DNA of 64,000 nt. It comes from Escherichia coli. GTDB taxonomy: Bacteria; Pseudomonadota; Gammaproteobacteria; Enterobacterales; Enterobacteriaceae. The stretch lies in the NCBI RefSeq assembly GCF_024502345.1, contig NZ_JALDNN010000001.1; one strand, given 5' to 3'. Below, piece by piece: positions 10,596 through 53,622 of this stretch. How positions within the stretch are numbered: the first letter of the stretch is position 1; every line of letters begins with the position of its first letter. The notes below the pieces were generated by a model, which worked only from the letters and a program-made list of their open reading frames with translations, ran no database searches and had not been told where the DNA came from. The position numbers and the translations under genes were made by a program.

Positions 10596-11201
10596 TCAGC
10601 CACGGCTGCAACCGAAGTTACGCTCACCGTCACCGGTGATTTTGGTCTCCAGCTTGGCTAAATAGGCCGCCTGCGACAGGGCCTGTTGCAGTTGAGCACC
10701 ATCGCCACGTGTCAACCATGAGACTGGACTCGCCGGGAAACGAGCCAGAACGGCATGCGCCTGTGCATCCACCTTCAGGGCGCTGCACCACGCTTGTTTA
10801 ATCATACCTGCAAGCGAATCCGGGTCTTTGTAATCTCCCGGTCCGCACCACGTATCGCGGTTCAGCAACAGCACCGCGTGGTAATGCTTCTTCCCTTTGA
10901 TTTCACCAAACTCCCGCGCCCAGATAAAACGCAGCGTGGTCGGCCAGACGCGTTTGCCCTCGCGACGTTGACGCGTCTGAAGGGCATCAATCCGGGCTTT
11001 CAGGGAATCGGTGAAGCGGGAGATAACAGCAGCATCGGTGGCCGCTGGCGTATCCGGCAGACGGAGGTCAACACGCAGGGCCAGTAAGCGGGTGTAAGCG
11101 TTAAGAGCGCAACTGAAGGTATCAGCGATGCGTTGCTGCCAGTAAGGGTCGTATGTGTAACTCATTAAAATGGACTCCGGTGGGTTATCGTTCATAACCA
11201 T
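10596..11201 (-). CDS. YagK/YfjJ-family (inovirus Gp2-like) protein
   Basis: …KRVWPTTLRFIWAREFGEIKGKKHYHAVLLLNRDTW… shared with the 38217..38948 paralog; true start may be the internal Met (MSYTYDPYWQ). Confidence 0.7.
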   Translation of the reverse strand: MVMNDNPPESILMSYTYDPYWQQRIADTFSCALNAYTRLLALRVDLRLPDTPAATDAAVISRFTDSLKARIDALQTRQRREGKRVWPTTLRFIWAREFGEIKGKKHYHAVLLLNRDTWCGPGDYKDPDSLAGMIKQAWCSALKVDAQAHAVLARFPASPVSWLTRGDGAQLQQALSQAAYLAKLETKITGDGERNFGCSRG

Positions 11202-11336
11202 TACCGGTGCTGTTAAAAAAAACTTATTGCCTTCAGCGAGTCCGCCAGTCGATCCCTCAGAGACGGCTGGCTTCAGTAAAATATCGTGGCTGGCAGAATG
11301 ATTGCGTAAAGGGTAATCGCCTCTCAGAAATCGGTT

Positions 11337-11762
11337 CTAATGCCGGGTGACCCGAAGGCTGCGAAAAAACAGTCTTCCCGTTAGACGATGGCGGGTACGC
11401 TTGACATAAGCGGCGTCAACGAGTTCATCGGGTGGCAAATCACGGGTGATATTACAAATCGTCGCCAGTGCTGTATCGGAGAGTTTAAAACTCCGTGACA
11501 AGGCGTAGTAATCCCCGGTTTTTTGGTTACTGATGTTATCGAATAACGCTCTGAAGAAATCCGTCTGTGAAGGTCTGCGGGCGTTGATAATTGCCTCTGT
11601 CGCTTCATCCCTGAATGTTACCTCCACCTCTTCCATCCCCAGTGAGCGAATGATCCCGGCAATGTCAGGCCAGTAGCGAAGATCGAAACTGTTAAGTCGC
11701 TGCAATTCTGGCTTACAGAAGCAGCTGAAGATTGCGATGCCCTTGTATTGACCTGGACCCAA
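11337..11762 (-). CDS. hypothetical protein (141 aa), possibly a gene fragment
   Basis: ORF in track; no confident family assignment. Confidence 0.3.
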   Translation of the reverse strand: MGPGQYKGIAIFSCFCKPELQRLNSFDLRYWPDIAGIIRSLGMEEVEVTFRDEATEAIINARRPSQTDFFRALFDNISNQKTGDYYALSRSFKLSDTALATICNITRDLPPDELVDAAYVKRTRHRLTGRLFFRSLRVTRH

Positions 11763-13311
11763 AATAGGTTGTGGTTACCCTGAAAAGCAAATATTACCCC
11801 AGAGGGATGTATATACCCGGGGCAAGAGCCCCTGTACCAGTCCCTCATTGCTGTCATGATATTATTACCCCGTTCAATAAGCCCGATAAATAATCGTTAT
11901 CGGGACTACTGCTAAAACGCCCTGTAACGCATCAGGAGCGCCATATTCATACTAACCACAGATTTCCACTATCGTGTTATTCAATGCGCTTATGCAGGCT
12001 CACAGGAAGCTATGGCGGTATAAGACACTACAGCGCTCAATTACTTATTAAATAGCTTGCGGTGATTACCAGGATAATCACCCTATTCCACGTCACCTCA
12101 ATCGGGTTATTCTGTTTACGATACAATCATGACTATTATCACCAACACGGATAATGCCCCGTTTACAGTCGTTACCAATGGCCTTGTTTACACATATCAA
12201 AAAACTTTCAGGGATAACGGGTCACCGTAGTATCTGTAACTGACAGGTATTGTAAGCGTCAATATCAGGCAGACAGAGCAATACCGACAGGCTTACTACA
12301 GGTTAGTTCACTGACTGAGCATTTAACGCTCATCACTAATACGCAGACCAGTAATAAACCATTGATACTCACCTGCTGATTTTCAGGCATGACCATTCAC
12401 CCAAAACGTTACTGTTAACCAGTAACCACCCTGTCGTTATGATTATTAGATTACTGATGTTAATCATCTTCACTTTTATCCTGACGAGGACTAGTCAATG
12501 GTAATATCGACTCAATTCAATTCTGTTTTCTTAATGATAGATTTTTAATGAGTGCTAAACATTCAGGTTGTGACTACATTGAATGGTGTATTTCTTACCT
12601 GATGGCAATGATTGCTCAATGGATACCATCCAATAGTACTATCCCCTTAGTGAATACCTTCAGATAATAATACCTCCCAGGCATAACCCACTTACTGATA
12701 ACACATCATCGATTACTGTTACAAATGATAAGACCCCTTCTTTAATATATTAATACCAATCCAACACGCCAGGCATAACAATAGCTATGAAGATAACCAC
12801 GCCAGACAGCACTTACCTACAACAAACGCCTGCATCAGTTACTCTGGAATTATCTTTTTTCAATAACATGAAAATAGACACCACGTCATATCAAATAACC
12901 TCAATCAAATTAACCCCGTATCATCACTGCCCGCAGAAGCCCTCAATCCTGATTATGAGCAACAAAATGGAAATACCTCATGGCAGCCCGACCTGATACC
13001 AGAAATGCCCCCTGAAGCGAACCAGGCACCATGATGGGGATGAAAACGAAAGCATGCAGGAGAACAAGATAACCTATTGAGACGATACTCATCCAGTAAA
13101 CAGAGAAGCATCTGAGAGATAAACAAAGAAAATGACAACTTTAAAACCATGGTAAAACCTTGTCAAAACCAGTATAAATCAACAATAAAACCTCACGATG
13201 ACTACCAGATGTGTTTTTAAGTGACGATAAAACCATCATCGTGATACTGTGTAGCTACAACAATCACCACCATAACCACTACTATGTAGTTTACGATTAC
13301 AGGTATCCACA

Positions 13312-14280
13312 ATGGTTGTACATTACGACAATGGCAGACAACATCTTATAAAAACCCGTGACCTGAGAGTCTGTGCTTTTTATGCCGGGTGGCTGGGTGT
13401 TAATAAAATAATTAACACCCGTGACATTCCTCACCAGGATGCAGAAAGTTGTCGACAGGCACTCAACAAACTGATTAATCAGTTCATACCGAATGCAGAA
13501 CAGCGGGCAAGACTTTTTTCTGATATGGAAACAGCCCGTGATGAAAACATCCTTCCGCTGGAAAGTTTTGACTGGCTAGAACAGGATGAACGGGCAACAT
13601 TCTGGTTATGGGCGTATATTTGCAAGGCCGGAGACTACGAACTTGGTATTGACAAACCAGCAAATGCAGAGTTCGGAAAGAACTGGTATCAGCGAATGAA
13701 TCTGAGTGTATCTCCGACAAGCCACCAGGAAAGAATTAATATTATCATCTCTTTTTTCGACAACATTATTATTCCGACCCCACCGGTAAATCATCTCAAG
13801 CGCCAGGTCATGGACAGGCTGAAAGACCAGTGGAAAAATATTTACAGCAAACCAGCTCCGCTGAAATGGTTACCTAATGAAGAAGACGCGGTACTGTGGG
13901 CATGGAACAGCCTCAAATCGCTTCAGGAAGAAAGAAATGCGCCCACTATCGGGCTCTCATTAAATATTTCAACGCCAGGAATGAGTACCTGGTTTACCCC
14001 CCTGAGTCATTCTGAACGCAATTTAGCCCTGCGCACGGCGATCGACTTATGGGACGATGCACCGGATACAAAGCGTTTATTCCTTCTGAACCTGAATAAA
14101 GCCTGGAACCAGCAAAAATTACGTCAGTCCCGTACCGATAAAAAAGCACTCAATACGTACCTGAAGAACGAAACAAAAACTCGACTGGACTTTATGGCAG
14201 AACGTAGCGGAGTTCGCATCAGTGATATGCTGGAAATGCTGATTAATGACCATTACCGAAAAACCTGTGGTGGTGAGTGA
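13312..14280 (+). CDS. hypothetical protein (322 aa), paralog of 40616..41503; follows a 1.4-kb G-poor non-coding region
   Basis: Shared FW.W block and similar length with the 40616 ORF; both divergent from a YagK-like gene. Confidence 0.55.
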   Translation: MVVHYDNGRQHLIKTRDLRVCAFYAGWLGVNKIINTRDIPHQDAESCRQALNKLINQFIPNAEQRARLFSDMETARDENILPLESFDWLEQDERATFWLWAYICKAGDYELGIDKPANAEFGKNWYQRMNLSVSPTSHQERINIIISFFDNIIIPTPPVNHLKRQVMDRLKDQWKNIYSKPAPLKWLPNEEDAVLWAWNSLKSLQEERNAPTIGLSLNISTPGMSTWFTPLSHSERNLALRTAIDLWDDAPDTKRLFLLNLNKAWNQQKLRQSRTDKKALNTYLKNETKTRLDFMAERSGVRISDMLEMLINDHYRKTCGGE

Positions 14281-14371
14281 GGGCTTTGCGCTAAAAACAA
14301 GGTGAGCGGAGGCAGTAATACAGACCAGAAATGACATTCAAAATAATTTCAGACCTATATTACCGGTGTGA

Positions 14372-14404
14372 GAACGGCAGCAGAAGTGCTGCCGTTTTGT
14401 TATT
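14372..14404 (+). terminator. putative rho-independent terminator
   Basis: Stem AACGGCAGC / GCTGCCGTT followed by TTGTTATTT. Confidence 0.5.
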
Positions 14405-14629
14405 TCACTCACGGAGGTTAATGTGTCCAGTAAGAACAAACGGGGTCCCGATACCCTGTTACCGTCGTTATTCCTTCTCCCGGGTCAACTGTCCCACAAA
14501 ATACCCGTGCGTATGCTTCTCGCGCTAAGTCACAGCTATGCTTTCTGTTCCGGTACCCAGGTCTCTCTGATACACGGTCCGCCAGCTCATGAAGGCGGCT
14601 ATTTATTGCCAGTAATAAGGGAGAAAGAA

Positions 14630-14926
14630 ATGCATTGTCCGAATTGCGGTTCGCAAAACATACGACTGCGCCATGTGGGTAAAAAGACGGGTGGGGTCAT
14701 TGGCGCAACAGCCGGAGGCATTGCCGGGCTTGAAGGAGCCTCCACCGGTGCGCTGATAGGTTCAGTCATTCCGGTTGTCGGTACGATAGCCGGAGGCCTC
14801 ATTGGTTTTCTGTCCGGCGCCTGTGCTGGTGCGGTGGCAGGCTCTCTGGCCGGAGAACAACTGGACGGTACCGTCTTTGATGAATACGGCTGCACGCAGT
14901 GCGAGCATATCTTCAGTGCACCGTAA
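14630..14926 (+). CDS. small zinc-ribbon / glycine-zipper membrane protein (98 aa)
   Basis: MHCPNCGSQNIRL… then Gly-rich TM segment (GGIAGLEGASTGALIGSVIPVVGTIAGGLIGFLSGACAGAVAG) and CTQCEH; start chosen at the internal Met with RBS GGGAGAAAG. Confidence 0.5.
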   Translation: MHCPNCGSQNIRLRHVGKKTGGVIGATAGGIAGLEGASTGALIGSVIPVVGTIAGGLIGFLSGACAGAVAGSLAGEQLDGTVFDEYGCTQCEHIFSAP

Positions 14927-15187
14927 CGTTAATAAGGGTCAGCCCATCCTGCACAAAGCCTGAGCCGCTGACCGTACTCGCTACGGCACGACTGATGACA
15001 GGGCGTGTCAGCATGCTGTCGTCATTTCAGCTACCTGGCACTAACCCTTTGTTAATTCTCCTGTTTACTGAAAGATGAATTTTACTTTTTCTTTTCCGCC
15101 ATTACGGGGGATGGACATAACGTGTCCCTCCCCGCCCGCATAATAACCGCATGAAATATCAACCTATTTATCGCACACGGAGCGTCC

Positions 15188-18675: not shown

Positions 18676-21414
18676 TTACTCAGCTTTAGCAAACTGCTGG
18701 GTGAAGTAAGCCAATGAATTAGCTTCTTTTACGGCATCATGCGGAATGAGTAAGTATTTCCAAGGTTTGCCACCGTGCTGTGCAAGGTATTCACTGGCAT
18801 GACTACACCATTTCACACCACTGCGGGCTTTTTCGGTGACTTCCTCATTCCAACTGCCGTCTTGGTTTTGATGTTGAGTACTTTTAGTTTCAATCATCAA
18901 TACATAGTCGGCGGTTTCAGCAACGAAATCCGGCACGTATTCAGGATGCTCGCTACCGCGTTTGTAGTACATCTTGAATTGGCCTTTGGCAGGCTTAAAC
19001 CACTTCTCGCAGTCGCGTTCTAAAATCACCGCAAAACGGCGCTCAGTGTCTGAATCAAACTTTTGCAATGGGTATAGACAACGGCTAAAGCCGCCAAAGA
19101 GCATTTGTTTGATGCGACTGACATCGCGTACTGTATCACGGTAGCTTTGCACCGGCTGGTCTTGCGCTATGGTGTAAGCGCAGTCACGTAAGGTACTAAA
19201 GCCACTGCGTACATCGACGACGTACTCGGTTGCTTCTTCAAAGAAGTGGTTGTTCAGTTGCGCATGAATTAACTTCGCAATCGCATCACTCTGGTTTTGC
19301 AGAATGTTCTCAACCACATCGTCGTCGTTTTCAGCGGCCAGTGTATTGACAGCTTGAGTGGCTAGGTCAAACAAAAGTTCAGCTTGCTCGTCGTAAGGAA
19401 TATCGTCGTAATCGAACAGCTTCTTCAAAATATAGTTTTGTTTCACCGGCTCGTAGTTGCCCGAATCGCCTTCGCCACGAATGGTTTGGTGATTGTCTTG
19501 CAGGCTTTGTTGAATCAGAGTTCGGTCGATAGGTTTTAAACCTTTAATGGCAGCAATGTCCAAATCGAACGGGTGATAGCCGGTACGTACTTCACCTGAT
19601 GGTGAAACAATAATACGCGGAATATCTATGGTGTTATCCACCGTGAGCTGGGTGACTTGCTCAACAATCGCCGCAATATCCACCGATTCTTCAGTAAATA
19701 GCTCCCGTTGCTCTTGGGTTAACTGAGCTTTTACTTGTTCGGTGATCTGTGCTTTTACCTCAGTCGTTAACAATGCTTTGCTGGTCGGCGCATCGGTAGG
19801 GCGTGTTTGATATTGCTTGATCACGTCCAATGCAGCGCGGGCAACGGTTTGTTGGTTAGGCGTGGTATAAGTGGCTTTAGGTTCTTGTACCTCACGGTTA
19901 CCGTCTGCACCGGTTGCGGTTACACCTGAACCAGTCAGTTGCTGCTCTAGGTTCGATTTAACCTGCACACTTTGTTTGGTTACATCGTCTTCTGGGCGAT
20001 CTAATACGCGTGTTTTCAGGCGCAGTGGGTTATTCGGGTCGTTAGCCTCATCAACAATTTCTTGGAATTTGTCGTGCGCAACAATGCTCAGCGTATCGAC
20101 GGCTTCAACACCTGTACGTTTGCCATAAGGTAAACGCAAACCACGGCCAATTGACTGTTCAATTAGGGTTCTGGCGTTGGCTGCACGTAGTGGCACAATG
20201 GTGTACAGGTTAGTAACGTCCCAACCTTCTTTCAGCATGTTAACGTGAATGACGATCTCGGTTGGCTCATCGACATGCTCAACATTGAGCAGTGCTTGAA
20301 TAGTTTCTTCTTCTTTTTTACTGCTATCCACTTGAATGACTTTGCCACGGTAGCGGCCGTCAAACACTGTTTCAAGTTTGGTTAAAAGCTCTGCTGCATG
20401 CGTGGTATCACGGGCAATCACCAACATAAAAGGCTTAACTAACTTAGCATCGTTTTCATGTGCATAAGTGATTAAATCCACCTTGGTTTGCTCATGTAAA
20501 CGAATACCGTCCATTAACTTAATGGTTTCTAGTTCGTCTTTATCATATTGGCTGGCATCAAAGTTACGCTGAGTAACAACGGCAGGCTCTTTAACAAAAC
20601 CATCATCCATGGCACAGGCCAATGGGTAATCAATCACCACATTTTTAAAGTGCACAGGGCCACGACTTGATTCGGTAAATGGTGTGGCCGTTAGCTCTAA
20701 TGCGAATAGTGGATTAAGCTCATTGAGCGCACGCATACCGGCATCGGCACGATAGCGATGCGATTCGTCCATCAGCAGCACTAAGTCAGGTAAGTTCGAT
20801 AGATACTCAAAGTAGCTTTCGCCTAGGGTTTCCGCTAAACGCTTAATACGCGGGGCTTTGCCTCCACGTACTTCGGTGTTAATTTTCGCGATGTTAAACA
20901 CATTGATCCGAACCGAACCAAATAGATCGCCCATGACTTGTGCGCCGCGGCTCTCATAGTTATCACCGGTGATCACTTCTGGCGGTGCTAGCACAAAATC
21001 GGTAATGCCTTTAAACACGTACTTCGGTGAGGCGGGCGAGAAATCGCTGATCAGCTTTTCATAAATAGTCAGGTTAGGTGCCAACACAAAATAATTGCGA
21101 ATGCCATGTACCTGATACAAATAGGTAATAAACGCCCCCATCAAACGGGTTTTACCTACACCTGTTGCCAAGGCAAAACACAGTGAAGGAAAGTCACGTT
21201 CAAAATCGCTGAGCTTAGGAAACTGCGCTTTTAAGGTTTCTAATAGCTCCGGCACATCGCGTTTTGGGTTCAGTAGTTTGTGCTCAGAAGCACTAATCGC
21301 CACTGCCAACGCACGCAGCGAATCTTGCTGCGGCTGGCGTAAGCTTAAACGGCCAATAATATTATTAATGGCACGTAATTGGTCGGGTTTTAAGCTTGAT
21401 AAATCCATGGTCAT
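18676..21414 (-). CDS. Type III restriction enzyme Res subunit (SF2 helicase + PD-ExK endonuclease)
   Basis: Helicase motifs I ATGVGKT, II DESH, VI QSIGRGLR; C-terminal PD…ETK (YVPDFVAETADYVLMIETK); directly downstream of the Mod gene. Confidence 0.85.
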   Translation of the reverse strand: MTMDLSSLKPDQLRAINNIIGRLSLRQPQQDSLRALAVAISASEHKLLNPKRDVPELLETLKAQFPKLSDFERDFPSLCFALATGVGKTRLMGAFITYLYQVHGIRNYFVLAPNLTIYEKLISDFSPASPKYVFKGITDFVLAPPEVITGDNYESRGAQVMGDLFGSVRINVFNIAKINTEVRGGKAPRIKRLAETLGESYFEYLSNLPDLVLLMDESHRYRADAGMRALNELNPLFALELTATPFTESSRGPVHFKNVVIDYPLACAMDDGFVKEPAVVTQRNFDASQYDKDELETIKLMDGIRLHEQTKVDLITYAHENDAKLVKPFMLVIARDTTHAAELLTKLETVFDGRYRGKVIQVDSSKKEEETIQALLNVEHVDEPTEIVIHVNMLKEGWDVTNLYTIVPLRAANARTLIEQSIGRGLRLPYGKRTGVEAVDTLSIVAHDKFQEIVDEANDPNNPLRLKTRVLDRPEDDVTKQSVQVKSNLEQQLTGSGVTATGADGNREVQEPKATYTTPNQQTVARAALDVIKQYQTRPTDAPTSKALLTTEVKAQITEQVKAQLTQEQRELFTEESVDIAAIVEQVTQLTVDNTIDIPRIIVSPSGEVRTGYHPFDLDIAAIKGLKPIDRTLIQQSLQDNHQTIRGEGDSGNYEPVKQNYILKKLFDYDDIPYDEQAELLFDLATQAVNTLAAENDDDVVENILQNQSDAIAKLIHAQLNNHFFEEATEYVVDVRSGFSTLRDCAYTIAQDQPVQSYRDTVRDVSRIKQMLFGGFSRCLYPLQKFDSDTERRFAVILERDCEKWFKPAKGQFKMYYKRGSEHPEYVPDFVAETADYVLMIETKSTQHQNQDGSWNEEVTEKARSGVKWCSHASEYLAQHGGKPWKYLLIPHDAVKEANSLAYFTQQFAKAE

Positions 21415-21435
21415 TATAATTATCCTTATTAACCG

Positions 21436-23142
21436 TTAATCTTGCGCTGCATCGTCATCGGCAGACGCATCGTCAGTTAGGTTTGCCACGTTTAACGAAT
21501 AATCGTCCTGACCAAATTGGCACTTGTCTAAAATGGCTTTTGGCAGTTTTTTCAAGGTTAAATTGGTAAAACGACCTGGCTCGCAGCGAAATGCACCACA
21601 CATAACCAGTAAAGTTCGGTCACTGCCAACTTCTTCTGACAGCGCTTCTAATTTATCTACCGATAAGCTTTGTGTGGTGACATAAATATGATCCGTCTCG
21701 GTTGAATAACCGTGATCCCACCAATTCACTTCCGATGGCGCATAGGTAAAACCTTCCAGCTTACAAACGGCTTCGGCGAGCATTTCTGGGTTGTACTCTT
21801 TATTGATCACTTCCAAGCCAAACTTATCTTTCACAATTAAGGTCGGGGCAAGTTTGTAATAGCGGAAGCCACCGCCACCTTGCCAGTTTACAGACTTAGA
21901 AATACCACCTTGATCTTCGCCATCAATCACTTTTTGCAAGCGCGGGATAATATGGGTATGACAATGATCACCTAGCTCGACCGAGATCCAACGTCTTTTC
22001 ATCTTGTGAGCTACAGCAGCAGTAGTTCCCGAACCACCGAATGAATCAAAGACTAAATCGCCTTCTCGCGTACACATTTCGAAAATCCGCTTCAAAAGCG
22101 CTTCGGGTTTTTTTCCATTTTTGAAACTAACGCCGCCTTCATTTGCTATTCCATTCCAACTAATGTCAGTCCAAACATCAGTTATTAGTTCAGCAGGTTG
22201 CATCTCACCGTCAATTTCCAAAAGCCTATTGGAGTAAAAGACCATTTGCCTACCATTTGCGATATAAAAGCCTTCGACATCCTCATTTGGATGTACATAA
22301 ACCTTATCCCTATCTTTCTTTGACTTCTCGATAGTTTCTTTTCTCTTTATTTTAGCACCACCACCAATTGCAACGGATTGAAATACACGTTCTGCATTAT
22401 CAATTGCGAATTGTGCTAATTCATCATCAAATGTATCAGGCAGTTTTTTCTTGGCTTCTTTTGTATCTTTATAGCCATTGGCCTTTGCAAACGCATCGGC
22501 AATACCGCACCACGTCCAACTTTTATAATGGTCATCTGGGTTTAATAGATATTTGTTATATCCCGTATCATATCCTTTAGGTATATAGATTTTGTTAAGC
22601 GGTTTCTGGGTGCGATCTTTTGCGTATACAAGCAAAAAGTTTACTGTGGAGAAAACTGTGGCCCCTGTTGCCTTAAAGCCTGAAGGGTCATTTGTGGTCA
22701 TCGATATGGTATTTAACTGATTTGCACGACCAAAAATCTCGTCCATCAAAACTTTTAAATAAGCCATTTCGCAGTCATCTAAGTGAACGAATATTACTCC
22801 ATCATCACTTAGTAGATTACGAATTATTTCTAACCTATCCCTCATTAAGCCCAGCCAAATGGAATGCTCCAGACCATCATCATAGTGCTCAAAAGCACTT
22901 CCGGTATTGAATGGTGGGTCTATGTAAACACACTTCACTTTGCCTGCATATTCTTGCTCTAGCGCCTTCAATGCCAATAAGTTATCGCCAAAAATCAGTT
23001 TATTATCAAAAATATCGTTTTCGGTCACTTTTTGGCTGGCGTGATAAGACTTGCTCGGGTCTTCTAACAAAATGCGCGGCTCTAACTTTTTGCGCTCGTT
23101 TTTGCCTATCCAGGTCAGTTCTAATTTGGTTTTGCTCATCAT
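21436..23142 (-). CDS. Type III R-M Mod subunit (N6-adenine/N4-cytosine class DNA methyltransferase)
   Basis: Motif IV DPPFN and SAM motif FDSFGGSGTT; mod-res gene order with a 21-bp gap. Confidence 0.85.
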   Translation of the reverse strand: MMSKTKLELTWIGKNERKKLEPRILLEDPSKSYHASQKVTENDIFDNKLIFGDNLLALKALEQEYAGKVKCVYIDPPFNTGSAFEHYDDGLEHSIWLGLMRDRLEIIRNLLSDDGVIFVHLDDCEMAYLKVLMDEIFGRANQLNTISMTTNDPSGFKATGATVFSTVNFLLVYAKDRTQKPLNKIYIPKGYDTGYNKYLLNPDDHYKSWTWCGIADAFAKANGYKDTKEAKKKLPDTFDDELAQFAIDNAERVFQSVAIGGGAKIKRKETIEKSKKDRDKVYVHPNEDVEGFYIANGRQMVFYSNRLLEIDGEMQPAELITDVWTDISWNGIANEGGVSFKNGKKPEALLKRIFEMCTREGDLVFDSFGGSGTTAAVAHKMKRRWISVELGDHCHTHIIPRLQKVIDGEDQGGISKSVNWQGGGGFRYYKLAPTLIVKDKFGLEVINKEYNPEMLAEAVCKLEGFTYAPSEVNWWDHGYSTETDHIYVTTQSLSVDKLEALSEEVGSDRTLLVMCGAFRCEPGRFTNLTLKKLPKAILDKCQFGQDDYSLNVANLTDDASADDDAAQD

Positions 23143-23196
23143 TTCTGTGCTCTTATCTTGTGTTCGTTACTTAGCGTTATTATTCTACAGCAATCG

Positions 23197-25062
23197 CTAC
23201 GCAGGTTGTGCTTGGCGATTACTCGCTTGGGTGTTTTGCCCTTGTCGGCGTTGCGCTTGCTCGGCTAAGTAACTGAATAAATTCTGGTTGTGTGGGTCGT
23301 TCGCTTGAAGGCGTTCTTGTTTTGCTACAACTGCCGGGCTTTCTGCCAAGTTTAAATGGCTAATCCACACCGTTTGCATTAAACGTGCGGTATCGCCCAA
23401 GCGTTTGAAGTATGCGTGCGGCGCACTGCCTAATACTAATGCCGTAAAACTATCAAAAAATTGCTGACGAAGTTCATCAAAAGCGTGGCTGATTAATCTT
23501 TTAAATGCCGCTTGCTCGGTAATCTCAGGAGCCGTAATAGCGCCTTCAAACTGCGCCATTAATAGCGTGGTTATGCAGTAAGTAAAATGTCGATATACCA
23601 GTTTTTCTGGGCTTGGACTACTGCGCTCTGCGTTTGTACATAAGACTTGAATAGCCAGATAGCAGTTCACCGCGTTAATGGCGACGGCCCCCTGTAAATC
23701 TGTACTAAAAACGGCTTGGTACTCGGCACTTTCTTGGTTAGTGAATTTGCTTGGCTCTACTTTTAGCTGATAAGGCACGCGTACATCACCGTGCATACAG
23801 GCCAATGCTTTGGCCAAGGTGTCGATAGTAATGCTGCGAATACCCGCTGCTGCGCTTTGTTGTGGGCGGTAGAGATATTCAACACCAAACATTTTCATCT
23901 CTTGGCGCAAGCGTTCTTGGGTATCATCCAGCGCGGCAAAGTTGGCTAAATCGACCGGGTTTTGCAGGTTACGCGCTTTGGTTACTTGTTTGTGAAATGC
24001 ATCGTTACCCGTGTTGATAATGGTTACCATCACTTGAGCTTGGCTGATGTCTGCATTTGGGTTTTCACGCATAAACTGTGCAGCACTAGCAATGGTTTGT
24101 GCACCGTTAACGACGGACAGGCCATCGACTGCAACATGCTTGCTACCTGTGTGGCCTCTAATATTCCCTTTTGGTTTTACTGCATTGCCAACCAGAGTAA
24201 TGCCATTGTTAAGATAAATAAAATTTTCCGGCTCATGTAAAAGGGTGTCTTTAATCGCCCTATTTACCCCACGTCTGCCAGCACCAATAAAATAGCGAAT
24301 ATTTTTCTCGTAAAGTTTACGGTCATGAGTAGTGTGCAAGGCAATTAAATCGGTTAGCTTGGCGATACCAAATACGACTTTTCGTGGTTGTTCTTGCACT
24401 CGGAACTTATATACAGCGACACGCTCGTTTACCGTATCAACCGCATGTTCACTGCGAAGAGCCTGCTCAACATCGGTGGCGGTGTATTCTTGATATTCAG
24501 GTGCGATTTGCTCTTCACCTTCATCAATCAGCTCTTGGATCGCTGGTTGTAGGTAGTTTTGTGCTTGTATGGTAATGCCATTACCTGTGTATGCGACAAG
24601 CAGTTGAATTCTTTCGCACTCGTCTAATGCGGCTTCAATATTTGCTTGAAGGTTTTGAACATTTTGATTAAAGCGGTGAAATTGCTTGTTTAAAAGTAAC
24701 TTTACACCCTCAATAAAAGCCTGTGCTTCGCCCAATTGGAATTGCGCATCTTCCTTCATTTTTGACTGTACTAAGTACAGAGTCTGATCAGCTTCGTGAT
24801 AATAAATTGCATCAATACCATGGTCTTCATAGTCGTCCACCACAGCTTTTGCTGCGGTCACTACGTCTAAATCGAATTTTTGCTGTAGTACGAATGCGCT
24901 AAAAGCCCTGGAAATTTGCTTTTTAGGTTTATCTTCTCGCCCACCTTGCCCAAGCAATGGCGGTAAATGCGGCACAAAACGCTGCTGTAGCAGTTCTTTT
25001 AATAGGGTAAGAAATTGTGGTTGTAATGCTGCCAAGTGAGTTGTCCTTATTTTTATTGCCAA
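23197..25062 (-). CDS. large abortive-infection-like protein, tentatively AIPR family (621 aa)
   Basis: Size and context (between an Abi_2 gene and an RM system) and a remembered VVNGAQT-like block; family assignment from memory only. Start overlaps the upstream stop by 10 nt. Confidence 0.4.
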
Positions 25063-25994
25063 ATTGGCCGCGCTTGCCAGTCGGCTGGAAAGCCCATGCG
25101 GTCAATGTCTATTTGGTGATGATTTATCAATTGGATGAGTCGTTGCTTCCAGTGATGTTCACCACTGATCACATCCATGAGGTAGCCCAACATCACCAAG
25201 GTGTTATAAATTTTTCGTAAACGCCGGTCGCTATCGGGCAGGTTTTGCAAGCTTTGAATCAGTGCCGGTTCACCATGGCGTGGCAGTACCGTGGTTTTAA
25301 TAAAATCACGGTTCCATAGCCTAGAATGATGGGCACTTAAATTGCGCACTAGCGACAAATGCTCACAGAATGAGGTAAGAGTTTTTTCATCTAGGCCGTA
25401 GCTTTTGCTTATTACCTGGCGGTCGGCACGCAGCTTGATATTGCTGTACCAACAGGAAAGTTGCCCCATGGTTAACAGCTCAACACAGGCCCAAATAGGG
25501 GGTAGTGGCTCTTGATATTTTTGCGTAAGGTGCTTGATGAACTCTTCACGACTGCACTTTACCTCACCCGTGAGTTTGCCAAGGCTACTGGCGTATTCTA
25601 ATAAATCACCAAAGAGCTCTGGTTTTAAATGAGGGTGCGCGGTTTGGTATTTTTGGCTCAACTGATACGCAATTTGTGTGCGTAATGACACCTCAAAACG
25701 CTCGATGGCATCTAGCACTAACAAACGTAGTTCACGGTCGAAAACATATAGGCTTAGGACTTGGTCAAACTGAGTACCTGTGATAAACGTATGACTGGCA
25801 TGATCTTGCTCATAGGGCAAACAATAAGCCGCAAAACGATAGTAGTTCAGCTGTGCTAAGTAAAACTCAGCTTTCGGGACATCACTGATCACTAGGCCAC
25901 GTTGTTGCAACAAGCGTACTTGATCGCTAAAGCTTGTAGGGGGCTTGGTAAAAGCGACTTTAGGGACTGGTTTGCGGCTCATTTGACCTCCCAT
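25053..25994 (-). CDS. Abi_2-family (AbiD/AbiF-like) abortive infection protein
   Basis: 313 aa with N-terminal …[17 protein letters not shown]… signature, which I recall as typical of Abi_2 proteins. Confidence 0.55.
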
Positions 25995-26139
25995 GCAACA
26001 GAAGATCGAATTTTGCGGGCCCCAGAAACGAGTAACCCCTCACAGGGCGCTGATCTGACGGGTAGCGGGAGGGGTGTTGTTGCAGTGATCATAGCCCCAA
26101 ACTGAAAAAAGTCAATGCTGGCGTTGAAATTGATTGTCA

Positions 26140-29034: not shown

Positions 29035-29227
29035 CCAACACCCCTTTTCCTTGAGCTGCTTGCGTACTGATCCATTCTTCAAGATCGGATTGTTTAAAGC
29101 GCCAAGCATTGCCAACTTTAAAAGCAGGAATTTTATGTACCGCTGCTAGACGGTAAACAGTTCTCTCATTTACCTTCAAATACTCAGCTACTTCTTTAAT
29201 TGTCAGAACGGTATCAGTCATTTTCAC
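29021..29227 (-). CDS. small helix-turn-helix DNA-binding protein (excisionase/MerR-like HTH)
   Basis: LTIKEVAEYLKVNERTVYRLAAVHKIPAFKVGNAWRFKQSDLEEWI is a typical HTH_17-type pattern; overlaps the SNF2 start. Confidence 0.7.
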   Translation of the reverse strand: MKMTDTVLTIKEVAEYLKVNERTVYRLAAVHKIPAFKVGNAWRFKQSDLEEWISTQAAQGKGVLDGNN

Positions 29228-40615: not shown

Positions 40616-41503
40616 TTGTTAACTTCCTTGCATATTCGATTTCCATGTGATAGTGAAAATCACCAGAAGAGAATGCGATTGAGGCGTAATCAGATGAAAC
40701 AATATGAAGATGGTTATAACGTGAATGGATATAGCTGGGAAAATGAAACAATTGAGTATTTGTTGAATGATAAACAACTGACAGATAATCACATACCTGA
40801 ATGGGTTAAAAAAAATGAAATTGCAGCATTCTGGTTCTGGTTAGTTATAATTAACACAGATCCCAAACTCCTTGGGGTTCGTAATGAATTAGGGTTCAAT
40901 ACAGCCATGATGGGGCTGATTCCTGCGGGGAGTATACCCATAACAACAATTCCTTCAGATCATGAAATGAGACTGGATGTTATAAGCAAATGGATTAATG
41001 CATTAATCCTTGACAATCAATCAGATTGGTTCATCTCAACAATGCATCAAAACTGGCTGCAGATCGAAAAGAGAAACGAAGCCAAATGGCTTAAAAAGAA
41101 TACAGAACAACTCGAATGGGCATGGAAATATATCAATGCACGCATCCCGCACACGTATCTTTCCTGGTTTTATCCTGTAAGTGATAACGAAAGATACATT
41201 GCTATCGTAGTTTTACTAAAAATTTTATTCCCCGCAGATACACCATACTTACAGCAGCCAAAAGTACTTCACTATGGGGTTGCCGCAAAAGAAAAATTTT
41301 TCGACAAGATGCACAATGCATTCCGAAAACAGTTTACCGACGGAAAAAAAGATAAGCGGGTACAAATCAACGTTAAAATATCATCAGATGCAAAACGTAC
41401 TCTGGACAGACTGACCAGAGAACTGAAAACAACACAACAGGCTGTCCTGGAACATCTGATTCAGAACCACAGGCTGGTGATTCAGAACCACAGACTGGAT
41501 TAA
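40616..41503 (+). CDS. hypothetical protein (295 aa), paralog of 13312..14280; follows a 1.6-kb repeat-rich non-coding region
   Basis: Shared FW.W block; C-terminal basic segment (…KRVQINVKISSDAKRTLDRLTREL…) may be DNA-binding. Confidence 0.55.
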   Translation: MLTSLHIRFPCDSENHQKRMRLRRNQMKQYEDGYNVNGYSWENETIEYLLNDKQLTDNHIPEWVKKNEIAAFWFWLVIINTDPKLLGVRNELGFNTAMMGLIPAGSIPITTIPSDHEMRLDVISKWINALILDNQSDWFISTMHQNWLQIEKRNEAKWLKKNTEQLEWAWKYINARIPHTYLSWFYPVSDNERYIAIVVLLKILFPADTPYLQQPKVLHYGVAAKEKFFDKMHNAFRKQFTDGKKDKRVQINVKISSDAKRTLDRLTRELKTTQQAVLEHLIQNHRLVIQNHRLD

Positions 41504-53052: not shown

Positions 53053-53622
53053 CGGATCGCTGGTTATCTGTAAGTAATAATTATTACCGTAATGCAAAAT
53101 ATCCCTGGCACAAGTTACATCCTTCATCAGTAAAACTTGTGCCAGATCAAATATAATTATCCCTCCATCATCGTTAAAAATTAATATCTCTTCAGATGAA
53201 CGGTGTTTTTAATTTCAAAACGCTAACAAAAGTTAATTAACTATTATGTCACCCGCATTATGTGTATTTTTACCCACAAATGGGTAGATCAGATTAATCT
53301 TTAAACCTAATGATATCTGCCCTGAGAACAAAAAATAGACCGATAAATATCAATAAGATAACAGCAAACAAAACATTAACATCTGCGCAGTACAAACTAT
53401 AAACCCATCGCCAGAGAGTTTTTCTCTCTGAAAAAGCCGCTTATCACAGTGCATAAATTTGCCGCTGCTTTAATCAGCCAATATTTACTGTGAGGTATTT
53501 GCTAAAGCCGGTAACGACCAAACGGATATTTAGTCAGGCTCTGAAAACAGTTCATACAAAACAGAACGTGACTGTGATCTATTCAGCAAAAATTTAAATA
53601 GGATTATCGCGAGGGTTCACAC
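53053..53622 (+). promoter_or_regulatory. dcuB upstream regulatory region (AT-rich, 570 bp)
   Basis: Long AT-rich intergenic region before dcuB; in E. coli this region is known to carry DcuR/FNR/CRP-dependent control. Individual sites not mapped here. Confidence 0.4.

What the first reader, a model, noticed from the sequence alone, without database searches (positions are those of the whole stretch)
11860..13311. Long G-depleted non-coding regions with short direct repeats (also 32600..33700 and 38950..40615)
Three intergenic tracts of 1.1 to 1.6 kb lack long ORFs and are strongly G-poor on the strand read towards the adjacent 300-aa paralog (13312, 40616) or away from a YagK-like gene. The 39840..40020 segment has iteron-like repeats (ACGTGTAT / ATGTGTAT / ACACTTAGTA…). 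They could be replication or transfer origins, H-NS-silenced regulatory DNA or long non-coding RNAs.
Basis: seen in the sequence. Interest (0 to 1): 0.5.

Follow-up and report, generated by a model that had tools for sequence, protein, structure and literature searches.

The report
Island control regions beside nickase genes
The three long gene-free, G-poor stretches are the big intergenic control regions of three neighbouring CP4-type genomic islands, each starting at a gene for an HUH-type DNA-nicking enzyme, so they may hold the site where that enzyme starts copying or moving the island, though this is untested.

Summary
The tracts (11763-13311, 32598-~33650, 38949-40693) have no conserved ORF and contain three of the four most G-poor 300-nt windows of the 64 kb. 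The T3 repeats are real and vary in copy number between strains.

The tracts are not homologous to each other, apart from one 13-nt box (ACTCTGGAATTAT) shared by T1 and T3. This box occurs once, on the same strand, in every related locus from several genera.

The tracts are mosaics:
- About 1-1.2 kb of fast-evolving spacer travels with the nickase gene and ends at the box or a similar conserved end.
- In T1 and T3, a further 0.45-0.55 kb is the upstream region of a gene for a putative ribbon-helix-helix (RHH) DNA-binding protein, with 11-bp-phased repeats.

I found no Rfam match, no conserved RNA structure, no DnaA boxes and no long hairpins.

Best reading (about 0.4): a cis-acting origin or nick region combined with divergent promoter/operator DNA. 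Rivals are a purely regulatory H-NS/Rho-silenced leader, or a largely neutral spacer. Moderately interesting; function unproven.

The parts
11763..13311 (.). Tract T1: ORF-free, G-poor intergenic region. It lies between the leftward module (141-aa ORF 11337-11762, HUH gene 10596-11201) and the rightward 322-aa gene.
   Evidence: homologous tracts in 5+ genera
10596..11201 (-). YagK/YfjJ ('inovirus Gp2') gene of island 1, with HUH (HYHAVL) and YLAK motifs intact.
12740..12767 (+). T1 block A, CTTTAATATATTAATACCAATCCAACAC. It is near-invariant across Enterobacteriaceae T1-type loci and lies ~75 nt upstream of the box.
12841..12853 (+). Conserved 13-nt box ACTCTGGAATTAT (T1 copy).
12935..13045 (+). 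T1 blocks C and D (CCTGATTnTGAGCAAC ... GAAGCGAACCAGGCACCATGATGGGG), conserved among the closer T1-type loci.
13143..13234 (+). Five AAAACC repeats. The first three are phased at 11 bp. They lie ~80-170 nt upstream of the 322-aa gene.
   Evidence: conserved in 12 loci
13186..13311 (+). Promoter/operator-like segment with GACTACCAGAT, GTGAC, CTAC and GTAGTTT motifs. It is conserved as primary sequence out to Morganella, Yersinia and Providencia, with no conserved RNA fold.
13312..14280 (+). 322-aa protein with a conserved C-terminal domain that matches ribbon-helix-helix (RepB-RCR_reg / CopB-like) models only weakly.
32031..32597 (-). YagK/YfjJ gene of island 2, with HAHAVF and YLAK motifs intact.
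32598..33650 (.). Tract T2, inherited together with its HUH gene in other E. coli. It is G-poor at 32770-33300 and C-poor to the right of that.
33390..33505 (+). T2 purine-rich GAGTGA-type repeats. In a relative (L028) this region is expanded into a (GGAGAAGGT)n microsatellite.
33506..33539 (+). Conserved right end of the T2 module (AGTATAATAATAGTAATAAACCTAAATTAAAAAC). To its right, related loci carry different cargo.
33650..33751 (+). IS21-family end, abutting an istA remnant. It is not part of the native tract.
38217..38948 (-). YagK/YfjJ gene of island 3 (243 aa). Motifs HYHVIL and YLVK are intact. Pfam gives YagK_YfjJ_C plus REP_ORF2-G2P. The AF2 model matches HUH nickase domains.
38949..40140 (.). 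T3 left module. It travels with the HUH gene in all relatives, including strains 536 and CFT073. It is A+C-rich and G-poor, and ends just after the box.
39823..40009 (+). Repeat array of 7 x A[CT][GA]TGTA and 6 x CTTA[GAC]T units. Copy number varies between strains.
40022..40045 (+). T3 block A (CCGACATTCTCAACATCTTCAGAC), invariant in the T3 family, ~77 nt upstream of the box. A sigma-70-like match lies just upstream at 39992-40020.
40098..40119 (+). 9-bp hairpin TCTGCTCTG-AAAA-CAGAGCAGA directly before the box. It looks like a terminator, is only semi-conserved within the T3 family, and is absent from the T1 family.
40123..40135 (+). Conserved 13-nt box ACTCTGGAATTAT (T3 copy). It marks the boundary after which relatives carry different cargo.
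40141..40693 (.). T3 right module: the upstream region of the paralogous 269-aa gene. It is conserved only in loci that carry that gene.
40502..40540 (+). Four GAATAG repeats at exact 11-bp spacing, ~150 nt upstream of the ATG at 40694.
40694..41503 (+). Distant paralog (20% identity) of the 322-aa protein. The start is corrected from 40616 to 40694.

Best explanation
**What the tracts are.** Each tract is the large intergenic control region of a CP4-57/CP4-6-type integrative island. In these islands a leftward AlpA and YagK/YfjJ module faces a rightward module encoding DUF932, antirestriction, RadC and CbtA/CbeA.

**Composite structure.**
- *Part 1* is about 1-1.2 kb of ORF-free, A+C-rich, G-poor DNA inherited together with the YagK/YfjJ gene. 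Its bulk evolves quickly. It ends in short invariant elements: block A plus the box ACTCTGGAATTAT in T1 and T3, and a different conserved AT-rich end in T2. In T3 these are preceded by a copy-number-variable repeat array.
- *Part 2* (T1 and T3 only) is the 0.45-0.55 kb upstream region of a putative ribbon-helix-helix DNA-binding protein gene. It carries 11-bp-phased direct repeats and CTAC/GTAG operator-like motifs.

**Proposed mechanism.**
- Shown here: YagK/YfjJ has the fold and the catalytic motifs of an HUH single-strand nickase.
- Inferred: its target lies in the conserved block A/box region at the far end of its own upstream module.
- Inferred: after the island is excised, nicking there would start rolling-circle-type copying or single-strand mobilisation. 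The AT-rich, weakly structured spacer would provide easily melted DNA and house the divergent promoters.
- Inferred: the RHH-type protein binds the phased repeats to control the rightward operon.
- Inferred: the G depletion is a strand-composition signature, not a sequence element. It has the same sign as the skew at synonymous sites of the nickase genes.
For: **HUH nickase**
- HYH/HAH and YLxK motifs are conserved in 26 of 31 family members.
- Pfam gives YagK_YfjJ_C at 1e-35 and REP_ORF2-G2P at 1.3e-7.
- PHROG gives weak hits to replication initiators.

**Linkage of tract and nickase gene**
- 18 intact genes abut an ORF-free gap of 850 nt or more.
- The T3 left module and T2 stay with the gene while the DNA beyond them changes.
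- The window's one paralog that lacks both catalytic motifs (8449-9015) has no tract.

**Conserved site**
- The box is the only T1-T3 similarity (E=0.006).
- With up to 3 mismatches, a 17-nt pattern spanning the box (ACTCTGGAATTATYTTT) finds 3 window matches against 0.33 expected; 0 of 100 shuffles reach 3.
- It is found once, on the same strand, in every T1- or T3-type locus, from Escherichia, Hafnia, Siccibacter, Superficieibacter, Tenebrionibacter and Pectobacterium. Variants with 1-2 mismatches occur in Morganella, Yersinia, Serratia and Rouxiella.
- In the variants the ACTCTG half stays invariant while the -10-like half does not. This argues against a plain promoter.

**Other support**
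- The T3 repeats next to the box exceed chance.
- 11-bp-phased repeats lie upstream of both RHH-type genes.
- The + strand A>T and C>G skew also appears at 4-fold sites of the three nickase genes, but not of the rightward genes.
Against: - There is no biochemical, replication or transfer evidence.
- The box is not in a conserved hairpin. A hairpin exists only in the T3 family.
- Iteron-like repeats are absent from T1-type tracts.
- T2 lacks the box.
- In T1-type Enterobacteriaceae loci one or two genes separate the nickase gene from the tract.
- 1-1.7 kb is far longer than known rolling-circle origins.
- Most of the tract diverges faster than 3rd codon positions of the adjacent gene (84-89% against 91-95% identity) and is full of indels.
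- An ordinary core-genome regulatory region (dcuR-dcuB) is just as G-poor.
- Counts of singleton substitutions show no significant strand asymmetry.
- The RHH assignment rests on weak HMM hits (E about 1e-3 to 1e-4), and the fold search was uninformative.
Confidence: 0.4

Rival explanations
1. The tracts are purely regulatory DNA. They would be long divergent promoter regions and 5' leaders, kept silent by H-NS because they are AT-rich and by Rho because the + strand RNA would be C-rich, G-poor and unstructured. The box, block A and the phased repeats would be binding sites for AlpA, the RHH-type protein or host factors. The nickase would act elsewhere or not at all.
For: - The tracts are 60-64% A+T.
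- C exceeds G by 2.5- to 3-fold over 300-400 nt.
- The dcuR-dcuB regulatory region of the core genome has the same composition.
- The last ~180 nt before the 322-aa gene is conserved as primary sequence without RNA structure.
- 11-bp-phased repeats are present.
- TGGAATTAT within the box resembles an extended -10 element. This is my reading of the sequence.
- In T3 a promoter-like site and a terminator-like hairpin bracket ~100 nt. This resembles AlpA-type antitermination cassettes, a comparison from my own knowledge and not tested here.
- An H-NS/StpA-like gene lies in the island at 34809-35249.
Against: - Box variants in Yersinia, Serratia and Rouxiella (AGTTAT, AGTTAC, AATTAC) lose the key -11A or -7T while ACTCTG stays invariant.
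- The box persists in loci where the RHH-type gene is replaced by a convergent gene.
- Promoter-like matches in the tracts are fewer than in shuffles: 2-3 found against ~6 expected.
- No expression, ChIP or Rho-inhibition data were available.
Confidence: 0.3
2. The tracts are mostly neutral spacer. This would be decayed or never-functional AT-rich DNA at the junction between the conserved island core and variable cargo, tolerated because nothing essential lies there. Only the ~100-200 nt next to each flanking gene would function, as ordinary promoters. The skew would be a mutational by-product.
For: - The tracts diverge faster than neighbouring synonymous sites and carry many indels.
- Microsatellite expansions occur in relatives L022 and L028.
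- IS elements are inserted in or next to the tracts: IS3 in CFT073 and IS21 in T2.
- The left ~800 nt of T1 barely aligns between genera.
- Different cargo follows the same module.
Against: - Length (~0.9-1.7 kb) and G-poor composition are kept across genera even where the sequence is not.
- The box and block A are invariant inside otherwise unalignable DNA, at a fixed spacing of ~75-100 nt.
- GATC is under-represented in T1-type tracts: 5 observed against ~23 expected.
Confidence: 0.2
3. The tracts encode non-coding RNA. This could be a long RNA, or a ~100-nt small RNA running from block A to the box.
For: - In T3 a sigma-70-like site (39992-40020) is followed ~80 nt later by a hairpin and a U-rich stretch.
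- That segment folds better than shuffles, with z = -4.0 as DNA.
- The box is followed by a T-run in most loci.
Against: - No Rfam family matches even at E<=1.
- RNAalifold finds almost no shared structure and no informative covariation in the T1 family, the T3 family or the RHH leader.
- The T1 block A-box segment folds no better than shuffles, with z = +1.05.
- Sequence turnover is high.
Confidence: 0.07

Closest known systems
Origins of HUH-endonuclease replicons. Examples are the rolling-circle dso of pMV158/pC194-type plasmids, filamentous-phage gpII origins, and parvovirus/AAV and CRESS-virus Rep origins.
   Same: - A small HUH/Tyr nickase gene has a non-coding region directly upstream.
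- In T3, short direct repeats lie next to a hairpin and a conserved short sequence, the usual layout of Rep-binding repeats plus a nick site.
- The region is AT-rich.
   Different: - The tract is 5-10 times longer than those origins.
- The candidate site lies ~1.1 kb from the gene.
- The hairpin is not conserved outside the T3 family, and the repeats are not found in the T1 family.
- The element is a 15-40 kb chromosomal island with a tyrosine integrase, not a small replicon.
- Nicking has not been demonstrated.
- I recalled resemblances of block A to the f1 (TTCTTTAATA) and pC194/phiX174 nick regions from memory. These are leads only.
CP4-57, CP4-6 and CP4-44 'cryptic prophages' of E. coli K-12, related pheV/pheU/selC pathogenicity islands (CFT073, 536, SRL), and Pseudomonas IntY/AlpA/Gp2-like islands.
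   Same: - The gene set is the same: AlpA, YagK/YfjJ, GTPase, DUF932, antirestriction, RadC, DUF987 and CbeA/CbtA.
- The T3-type tract is itself present in CFT073 and 536.
- The Pseudomonas islands also carry a core 'inovirus Gp2-like' gene and have no known transfer machinery.
   Different: - K-12's own copies have lost or never had the tract-plus-RHH arrangement.
- In the papers I searched, none of the hits I examined assigned a role to the intergenic tract, the box or YagK/YfjJ.
parC/ParR-type centromeres and RHH operator arrays (R1 parC, CopG, omega).
   Same: Direct repeats phased at one helical turn (11 bp) lie upstream of a gene whose product has an RHH-like C-terminus. In many loci an NTPase gene follows.
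   Different: - There are only 3-5 repeats.
- The NTPase is an Era/EngA-like GTPase, not ParM or ParA, and it lies downstream of the DNA-binding gene.
- The RHH assignment is weak.
Long H-NS- and Rho-silenced leaders of horizontally acquired genes, and long core regulatory regions such as dcuR-dcuB.
   Same: The DNA is AT-rich, C exceeds G on the sense strand, it is unstructured and it is several hundred nt long.
   Different: - The most G-poor part of T3 lies in the module linked to the divergent nickase gene. It is not in the leader of the rightward gene.
- No transcription data are available.

Membership tests
HUH-endonuclease (rolling-circle or relaxase-type) origin | Cognate HUH endonuclease with HUH metal-binding motif and catalytic Tyr encoded next to the site | tested here: met
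   - HYH/HAH and YLxK motifs.
- Pfam REP_ORF2-G2P at 1.3e-7.
- The gene abuts T2 and T3. For T1 it lies one small ORF away.
HUH-endonuclease (rolling-circle or relaxase-type) origin | Short conserved nick sequence presented in or beside a conserved inverted repeat | tested here: inconclusive
   - A conserved 13-nt box and block A exist.
- A 9-bp hairpin precedes the box only in the T3 family.
- There is none in the T1 family.
- T2 lacks the box.
HUH-endonuclease (rolling-circle or relaxase-type) origin | Direct repeats (Rep-binding sites) adjacent to the nick region | tested here: inconclusive
   - Significant in T3: 7 copies, reached by 0 of 40 shuffles.
- Not significant in nine T1-type loci.
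HUH-endonuclease (rolling-circle or relaxase-type) origin | Site-specific nicking and nickase-dependent replication or transfer | not testable with these tools
   This needs biochemistry and genetics.
Iteron-type theta plasmid origin | 17-22-bp iterons in regular phase, DnaA box(es), and an adjacent RepA/pi-type initiator | tested here: not met
   - The repeat units are 7-9 nt at irregular spacing of 19-48 nt.
- There are no DnaA boxes in any tract.
- The neighbouring initiator-like gene is of HUH type, not RepA type.
F-type single-stranded DNA promoter (Frpo/ssi) of plasmid leading regions | Long (~300 nt) imperfect inverted repeat that folds into a promoter-bearing hairpin | tested here: not met
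   - There is no long inverted repeat in T1 or T3. Only 22-nt palindromes are present. T2 has one 88-nt arm pair at 70% identity.
- Folding of the T1 box region is no better than shuffles.
Structured non-coding RNA (Rfam family or new) | Match to a covariance model, or a conserved secondary structure with compensatory changes | tested here: not met
   - No Rfam hit at E<=1; the only hit at gathering score is a group II intron elsewhere in the window.
- No informative covariation.
Rho-utilisation (rut) region or Rho-dependent attenuator | C-rich, G-poor, unstructured RNA segment of 80 nt or more | tested here: met
   - 12623-12922 has G 9.7%; the 100-nt windows spanning it have C 25-29%.
- 39188-39487 has G 10.7%; the overlapping 100-nt windows have C 22-32%.
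- Only composition was tested. Whether a transcript crosses these segments is unknown.
Rho-utilisation (rut) region or Rho-dependent attenuator | Rho-dependent termination of a mapped transcript | not testable with these tools
   No transcriptome or bicyclomycin data are held.
RHH repressor operator / ParR-parC-like array | Ribbon-helix-helix DNA-binding protein encoded next to the repeats | tested here: inconclusive
   - NCBIfam RepA/CopB-like hit at E=1.3e-4.
- Pfam RepB-RCR_reg at E=0.0026, with 13 of 19 members at E<=0.1.
- The fold search was uninformative.
RHH repressor operator / ParR-parC-like array | Direct repeats phased at about one helical turn | tested here: met
   - AAAACC at 13143, 13154 and 13165.
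- GAATAG at 40502, 40513, 40524 and 40535.

The most novel reading that the evidence does not exclude
YagK/YfjJ proteins would be the dedicated HUH nickases of the very widespread CP4-type islands. These islands are found in Enterobacterales, with Gp2-like relatives in Pseudomonas. The block A / ACTCTGGAATTAT region would be their previously unrecognised origin. Nicking there would let an excised island, or even a tandemly integrated one, replicate by rolling circle or be exported as single-stranded DNA. That would explain how 'cryptic prophages' and pathogenicity islands lacking any known transfer genes spread. It would also explain why variable defence and virulence cargo accumulates exactly at that boundary.
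Probability: 0.22. Interest if true: 0.72.

Novelty: new variant of a known kind. Interest (0 to 1): 0.45.

Why it matters
CP4-57-like islands and their relatives carry virulence, resistance and anti-phage cargo in a large share of E. coli, Klebsiella, Salmonella and related genomes. T3-type tracts alone are in 1878 of 5426 complete E. coli genomes. How these islands replicate or move after excision is unknown. A nickase plus a conserved candidate target site gives a concrete, testable mechanism. It also gives a short marker (the box) for the core/cargo boundary. If the regions instead prove to be only H-NS/Rho-silenced leaders, the result is ordinary, but it still explains the odd composition.

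Tried and rejected
- **Homology among the three tracts.** blastn with word size 7 finds nothing but the 19-nt box match.
- **Known RNA families.** None match, at gathering thresholds or at E<=1.
- **Conserved RNA structure.** None in the block A-box unit or the RHH leader.
- **Hidden or decayed genes.** Six-frame translations of five T1-type loci show no shared reading frame. The ~100-aa minus-strand ORFs in two loci are unrelated to each other.
- **Frpo-like long hairpins.** Absent.
- **DnaA boxes and IHF sites.** Not enriched.
- **A common 'ATAGTAWYAWACC' motif at the T2 and T3 module ends.** I derived this post hoc and it is not significant: 8 of 100 shuffles reach the observed count.
- **Strand-asymmetric mutation.** Singleton substitutions in seven T3 homologues give G>A at 0.111 against C>T at 0.088 per site, which is not significant.
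- **Scan of IMG/VR for the box.** It returned 120 chance hits, none carrying a Gp2-like or RHH-type gene.
- **Phage database.** The only hit is an unverified 4.5-kb contig holding a Gp2-like gene, which was not informative.
- **K-12 as a model.** CP4-6 and CP4-57 lack the tract arrangement, so no K-12 data apply.
- **Conjugative 'leading region' analogy.** I considered this from my own knowledge and did not adopt it. The rightward genes point away from the tract. Leading-region genes of F- and I-type plasmids are, as I recall, transcribed towards oriT from the transferred strand.
- **Fold of the 322-aa protein.** There is no informative structural match.
- **Literature.** The searches returned nothing I could link to the tract, the box or YagK/YfjJ function.
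Full report
**Setting**

The window is E. coli-type chromosome: dcuS, dcuR, dcuB and fumB lie at 50.7-56.7 kb. It carries three adjacent islands of the CP4-57/CP4-6 kind.

RefSeq annotation of identical or near-identical DNA shows the same layout each time:
- A leftward module holds an AlpA-like HTH gene, small hypothetical genes and a YagK/YfjJ ('inovirus Gp2 family') gene.
- A long unannotated gap follows.
- A rightward module holds a ~300-aa hypothetical gene, then a GTPase, an HTH/WYL regulator, DUF905, DUF932, antirestriction, RadC, DUF987 and CbeA/CbtA.

**Checking the observation**

All three tracts lack ORFs of 100 aa or more.

- G content on the + strand is 15.8% (T1), 18.7% (T2) and 16.6% (T3), against 23.6% for the window. 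A is 34-38%.
- Across all 300-nt windows of the 64 kb (mean G 23.6%, sd 4.0), the lowest, second-lowest and fourth-lowest lie in T1 (9.7%), T3 (10.7%) and T2 (12.0%).
- The third-lowest is the ordinary dcuR-dcuB regulatory region. This is a useful reminder that long regulatory regions can look like this.
- The depletion is patchy. The right half of T2 is C-poor instead, and the T3 repeat zone is simply AT-rich.
- The repeats at 39823-40009 are real: seven A[CT][GA]TGTA units interleaved with six CTTA[GAC]T units. They exceed chance, since 0 of 40 shuffles reach seven copies.
- T1 begins at about 11763.
- T3 ends at 40693, because the paralog starts at the ATG at 40694, as annotated in relatives.
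- The last ~100 nt of T2 is an IS21 end.

**Are the tracts related to each other?**

Not as sequences. Sensitive blastn among them gives only a 19-nt T1-T3 match (E=0.006).

- That match is the box ACTCTGGAATTAT, at 12841 and 40123. With up to 3 mismatches, a 17-nt pattern spanning it (ACTCTGGAATTATYTTT) finds 3 matches in the window against 0.33 expected, and no shuffle reaches 3.
- The box occurs exactly once, on the same strand, in every T1-type or T3-type locus I fetched.
- These include Hafnia, Siccibacter, Superficieibacter, Tenebrionibacter, Pectobacterium, E. albertii and many E. coli.
- Variants with one or two mismatches occur in Morganella, Yersinia, Serratia and Rouxiella.
- About 75-100 nt upstream sits a second invariant block. 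In T1 it is CTTTAWTATATTAWTACCAATCCAACAC. In T3 it is CCGACATTCTCAAYATCTTCAGAC.

**Comparative anatomy**

*T3-type tracts.*
- They occur in 1878 of 5426 complete E. coli genomes at 75-95% identity and are almost never annotated.
- Aligning seven of them shows that the first ~1190 nt (38949-40140) always accompany the nickase gene and stop just after the box.
- Beyond the box, some strains have the paralog's upstream region and gene. Others, including strain 536, have a different convergent gene.
- The repeat array differs by whole units between strains. One relative carries microsatellite expansions.

*T2.*
- It behaves the same way. Positions 1-956 stay with its YagK/YfjJ gene.
- A TIR gene, a sugar kinase or an IS follows in different strains.
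- The module ends in a conserved AT-rich stretch (33506-33539) rather than the box.

*T1-type tracts.*
- I retrieved them through the 322-aa protein family.
- They keep their length (~0.9-1.7 kb), their lack of ORFs and their G-poor composition across genera.
- Their left ~800 nt barely aligns. Conservation is confined to block A, the box, two further blocks, and above all the last ~180 nt before the ATG.

*Rate of change.*
- The T3 left module is 84-89% identical between strains whose adjacent nickase genes are 91-95% identical at third codon positions. It is also full of indels.
- So most of the tract is under little sequence constraint.

**What flanks the tracts**

*The nickase.*
- The YagK/YfjJ proteins have an HUH motif (HYHVILLL, or HAHAVF) and a YL(A/V)K motif. 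26 of 31 family members in my loci keep both.
- Pfam gives YagK_YfjJ_C (1e-35) and REP_ORF2-G2P (1.3e-7). PHROGs gives weak hits to replication initiators.
- I therefore regard the HUH nickase assignment as shown.
- The window's fourth paralog (8449-9015) has lost both motifs and has no tract.
- 18 intact genes abut a gap of 850 nt or more. In T1-type Enterobacteriaceae loci, however, one or two genes intervene.

*The ~300-aa proteins.*
- The 322-aa and 269-aa proteins are distant paralogs (20% identity, E=9e-10).
- Their C-terminus is highly conserved.
- It matches ribbon-helix-helix replication-regulator models only weakly. The fold search added nothing.

*Repeats upstream of the ~300-aa genes.*
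- Upstream of each gene, ~150 nt from the ATG, are direct repeats phased at 11 bp: AAAACC in T1 and GAATAG in T3.
- T1 also has CTAC/GTAG motifs that are conserved as sequence, not as RNA structure.

**What the tracts are not**

- They match no Rfam family, even at E<=1.
- They show no conserved RNA fold or covariation.
- They hold no shared reading frame.
- They have no DnaA box or IHF enrichment.
- They have no long inverted repeat of the Frpo kind.
- Iteron-like repeats upstream of the box are significant only in the T3 family.
- The hairpin before the box exists only there too. The T1 box region folds no better than shuffles.

**The G depletion**

- On the + strand the tracts are A>T and C>G.
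- The same sign appears at 4-fold degenerate sites of the three nickase genes: A against T is 0.28-0.36 against 0.08-0.14, and C>G. It does not appear in the rightward genes.
- So the skew belongs to the nickase-linked unit and to its sense (-) strand, which is T- and G-enriched.
- This fits a strand-asymmetric pressure on that unit. The pressure could be transcription of a long leftward leader, or repeated single-stranded exposure of that strand.
- Singleton substitution counts are too few to show an asymmetry, and codon preference could contribute.
- Read rightward, the RNA would be a strong Rho-loading substrate by composition.

**Interpretation**

The best-supported reading treats each tract as the island's control region.
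- It contains the candidate target of the HUH nickase (block A and the box, plus repeats in T3) at the boundary between core and cargo.
- It also contains promoter/operator DNA for the divergent operons.
- The nickase identity, the linkage and the conserved box are shown.
- That the box region is the nick site, and that the RHH-type protein binds the phased repeats, are inferences.

The main rival is that everything is ordinary regulation, as an H-NS/Rho-silenced leader, with the box being a promoter or factor site.
- TGGAATTAT looks like an extended -10 element.
- However, the natural variants destroy the critical -10 positions while keeping ACTCTG.
- The box also survives where the rightward gene has been replaced.

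A third view is that the bulk is neutral spacer at a cargo hotspot. This fits the fast turnover. It does not explain the conserved length and composition, or the invariant blocks.

I give these readings about 0.4, 0.3 and 0.2, with about 0.07 for an RNA gene.

**Literature**

- Searches returned nothing I could link to a function for YagK/YfjJ, the tract or the box.
- A preprint on Pseudomonas islands lists an 'inovirus Gp2-like' gene among core genes of islands that lack known transfer machinery and are moved by a jumbo phage (10.1101/2024.08.29.610337).
- So the class is recognised but its mechanism is open.

**Verdict**

Part of it is clearly functional DNA, but function is inferred, not shown.

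It is a new variant of a known kind: an HUH-nickase-associated control or origin region inside a known island family. Interest is moderate. It would be considerably higher if nicking at the box were demonstrated.

Noticed in passing
window 18676-29115 (- strand): The cargo of the first island is a defence cluster. It comprises a type III restriction enzyme and methyltransferase, AbiU-like and AbiD-like proteins, and a DrmD/BrxH-like SNF2 helicase.
   Followed up: partly
window 53053-53622: The dcuR-dcuB intergenic region of the core genome is as G-poor as the island tracts: 11% G at 53109-53408. It serves as a natural control showing that long regulatory regions can have this composition.
   Followed up: partly
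window 8449-9015 (-): This YagK/YfjJ paralog has lost both the HUH motif (ECKMVL) and the catalytic-Tyr motif. It is not next to a long tract. Similar motif-less copies occur in L005, L006 and L013.
   Followed up: partly
window 11763-13311 and homologues L004-L007: GATC (Dam/MboI) sites are under-represented in T1-type tracts: 0, 1, 2, 0 and 2 sites against ~3.5-5.6 expected in each. T2 and T3 have normal counts.
   Followed up: partly
window 1910-1996 and 2000-3523 (-): The group II intron domain V/VI region (Rfam RF00029, 64.9 bits) lies next to its reverse transcriptase/maturase ORF.
   Followed up: no
window 34809-35249 (-): An H-NS/StpA-like nucleoid protein gene lies inside the island, between IS remnants. 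It may bear on silencing of the AT-rich tracts.
   Followed up: no
window 41457-41498: A perfect-looking 21-bp tandem duplication (TGATTCAGAACCACAGACTGG x2, 95% match) sits at the 3' end of the 269-aa paralog. It gives a repeated ...QNHRL... C-terminal tail.
   Followed up: no
L022 (E. coli Br_112_kylling) ~1801-2992 and L028 (E. coli KGu016) ~3800-3900: Microsatellite-like expansions occur inside the tracts of relatives: (CACAAAC)n and (AAACTC)n in a T3-type tract, and (GGAGAAGGT)n in a T2-type tract.
   Followed up: no
L026 (E. coli K-12 CP4-6) 31199-31211: A box-like sequence, ACTCTGCAATTAG (2 mismatches), lies 250 nt upstream of yagK in the expected orientation. This could be a relic or chance.
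   Followed up: no
window 11000-15000: T1 is 100% identical (99.9% in one record) in 16 large (213-477 kb) plasmids of Klebsiella, Raoultella, Citrobacter and E. coli. It is present in only 3 of 5426 complete E. coli genomes, so this island moves between plasmids and chromosomes.
   Followed up: partly
L003 (CFT073) 7338-8551: In CFT073 an IS3-family element is inserted ~190 nt downstream of the box, between the nickase-linked module and the paralog gene.
   Followed up: no
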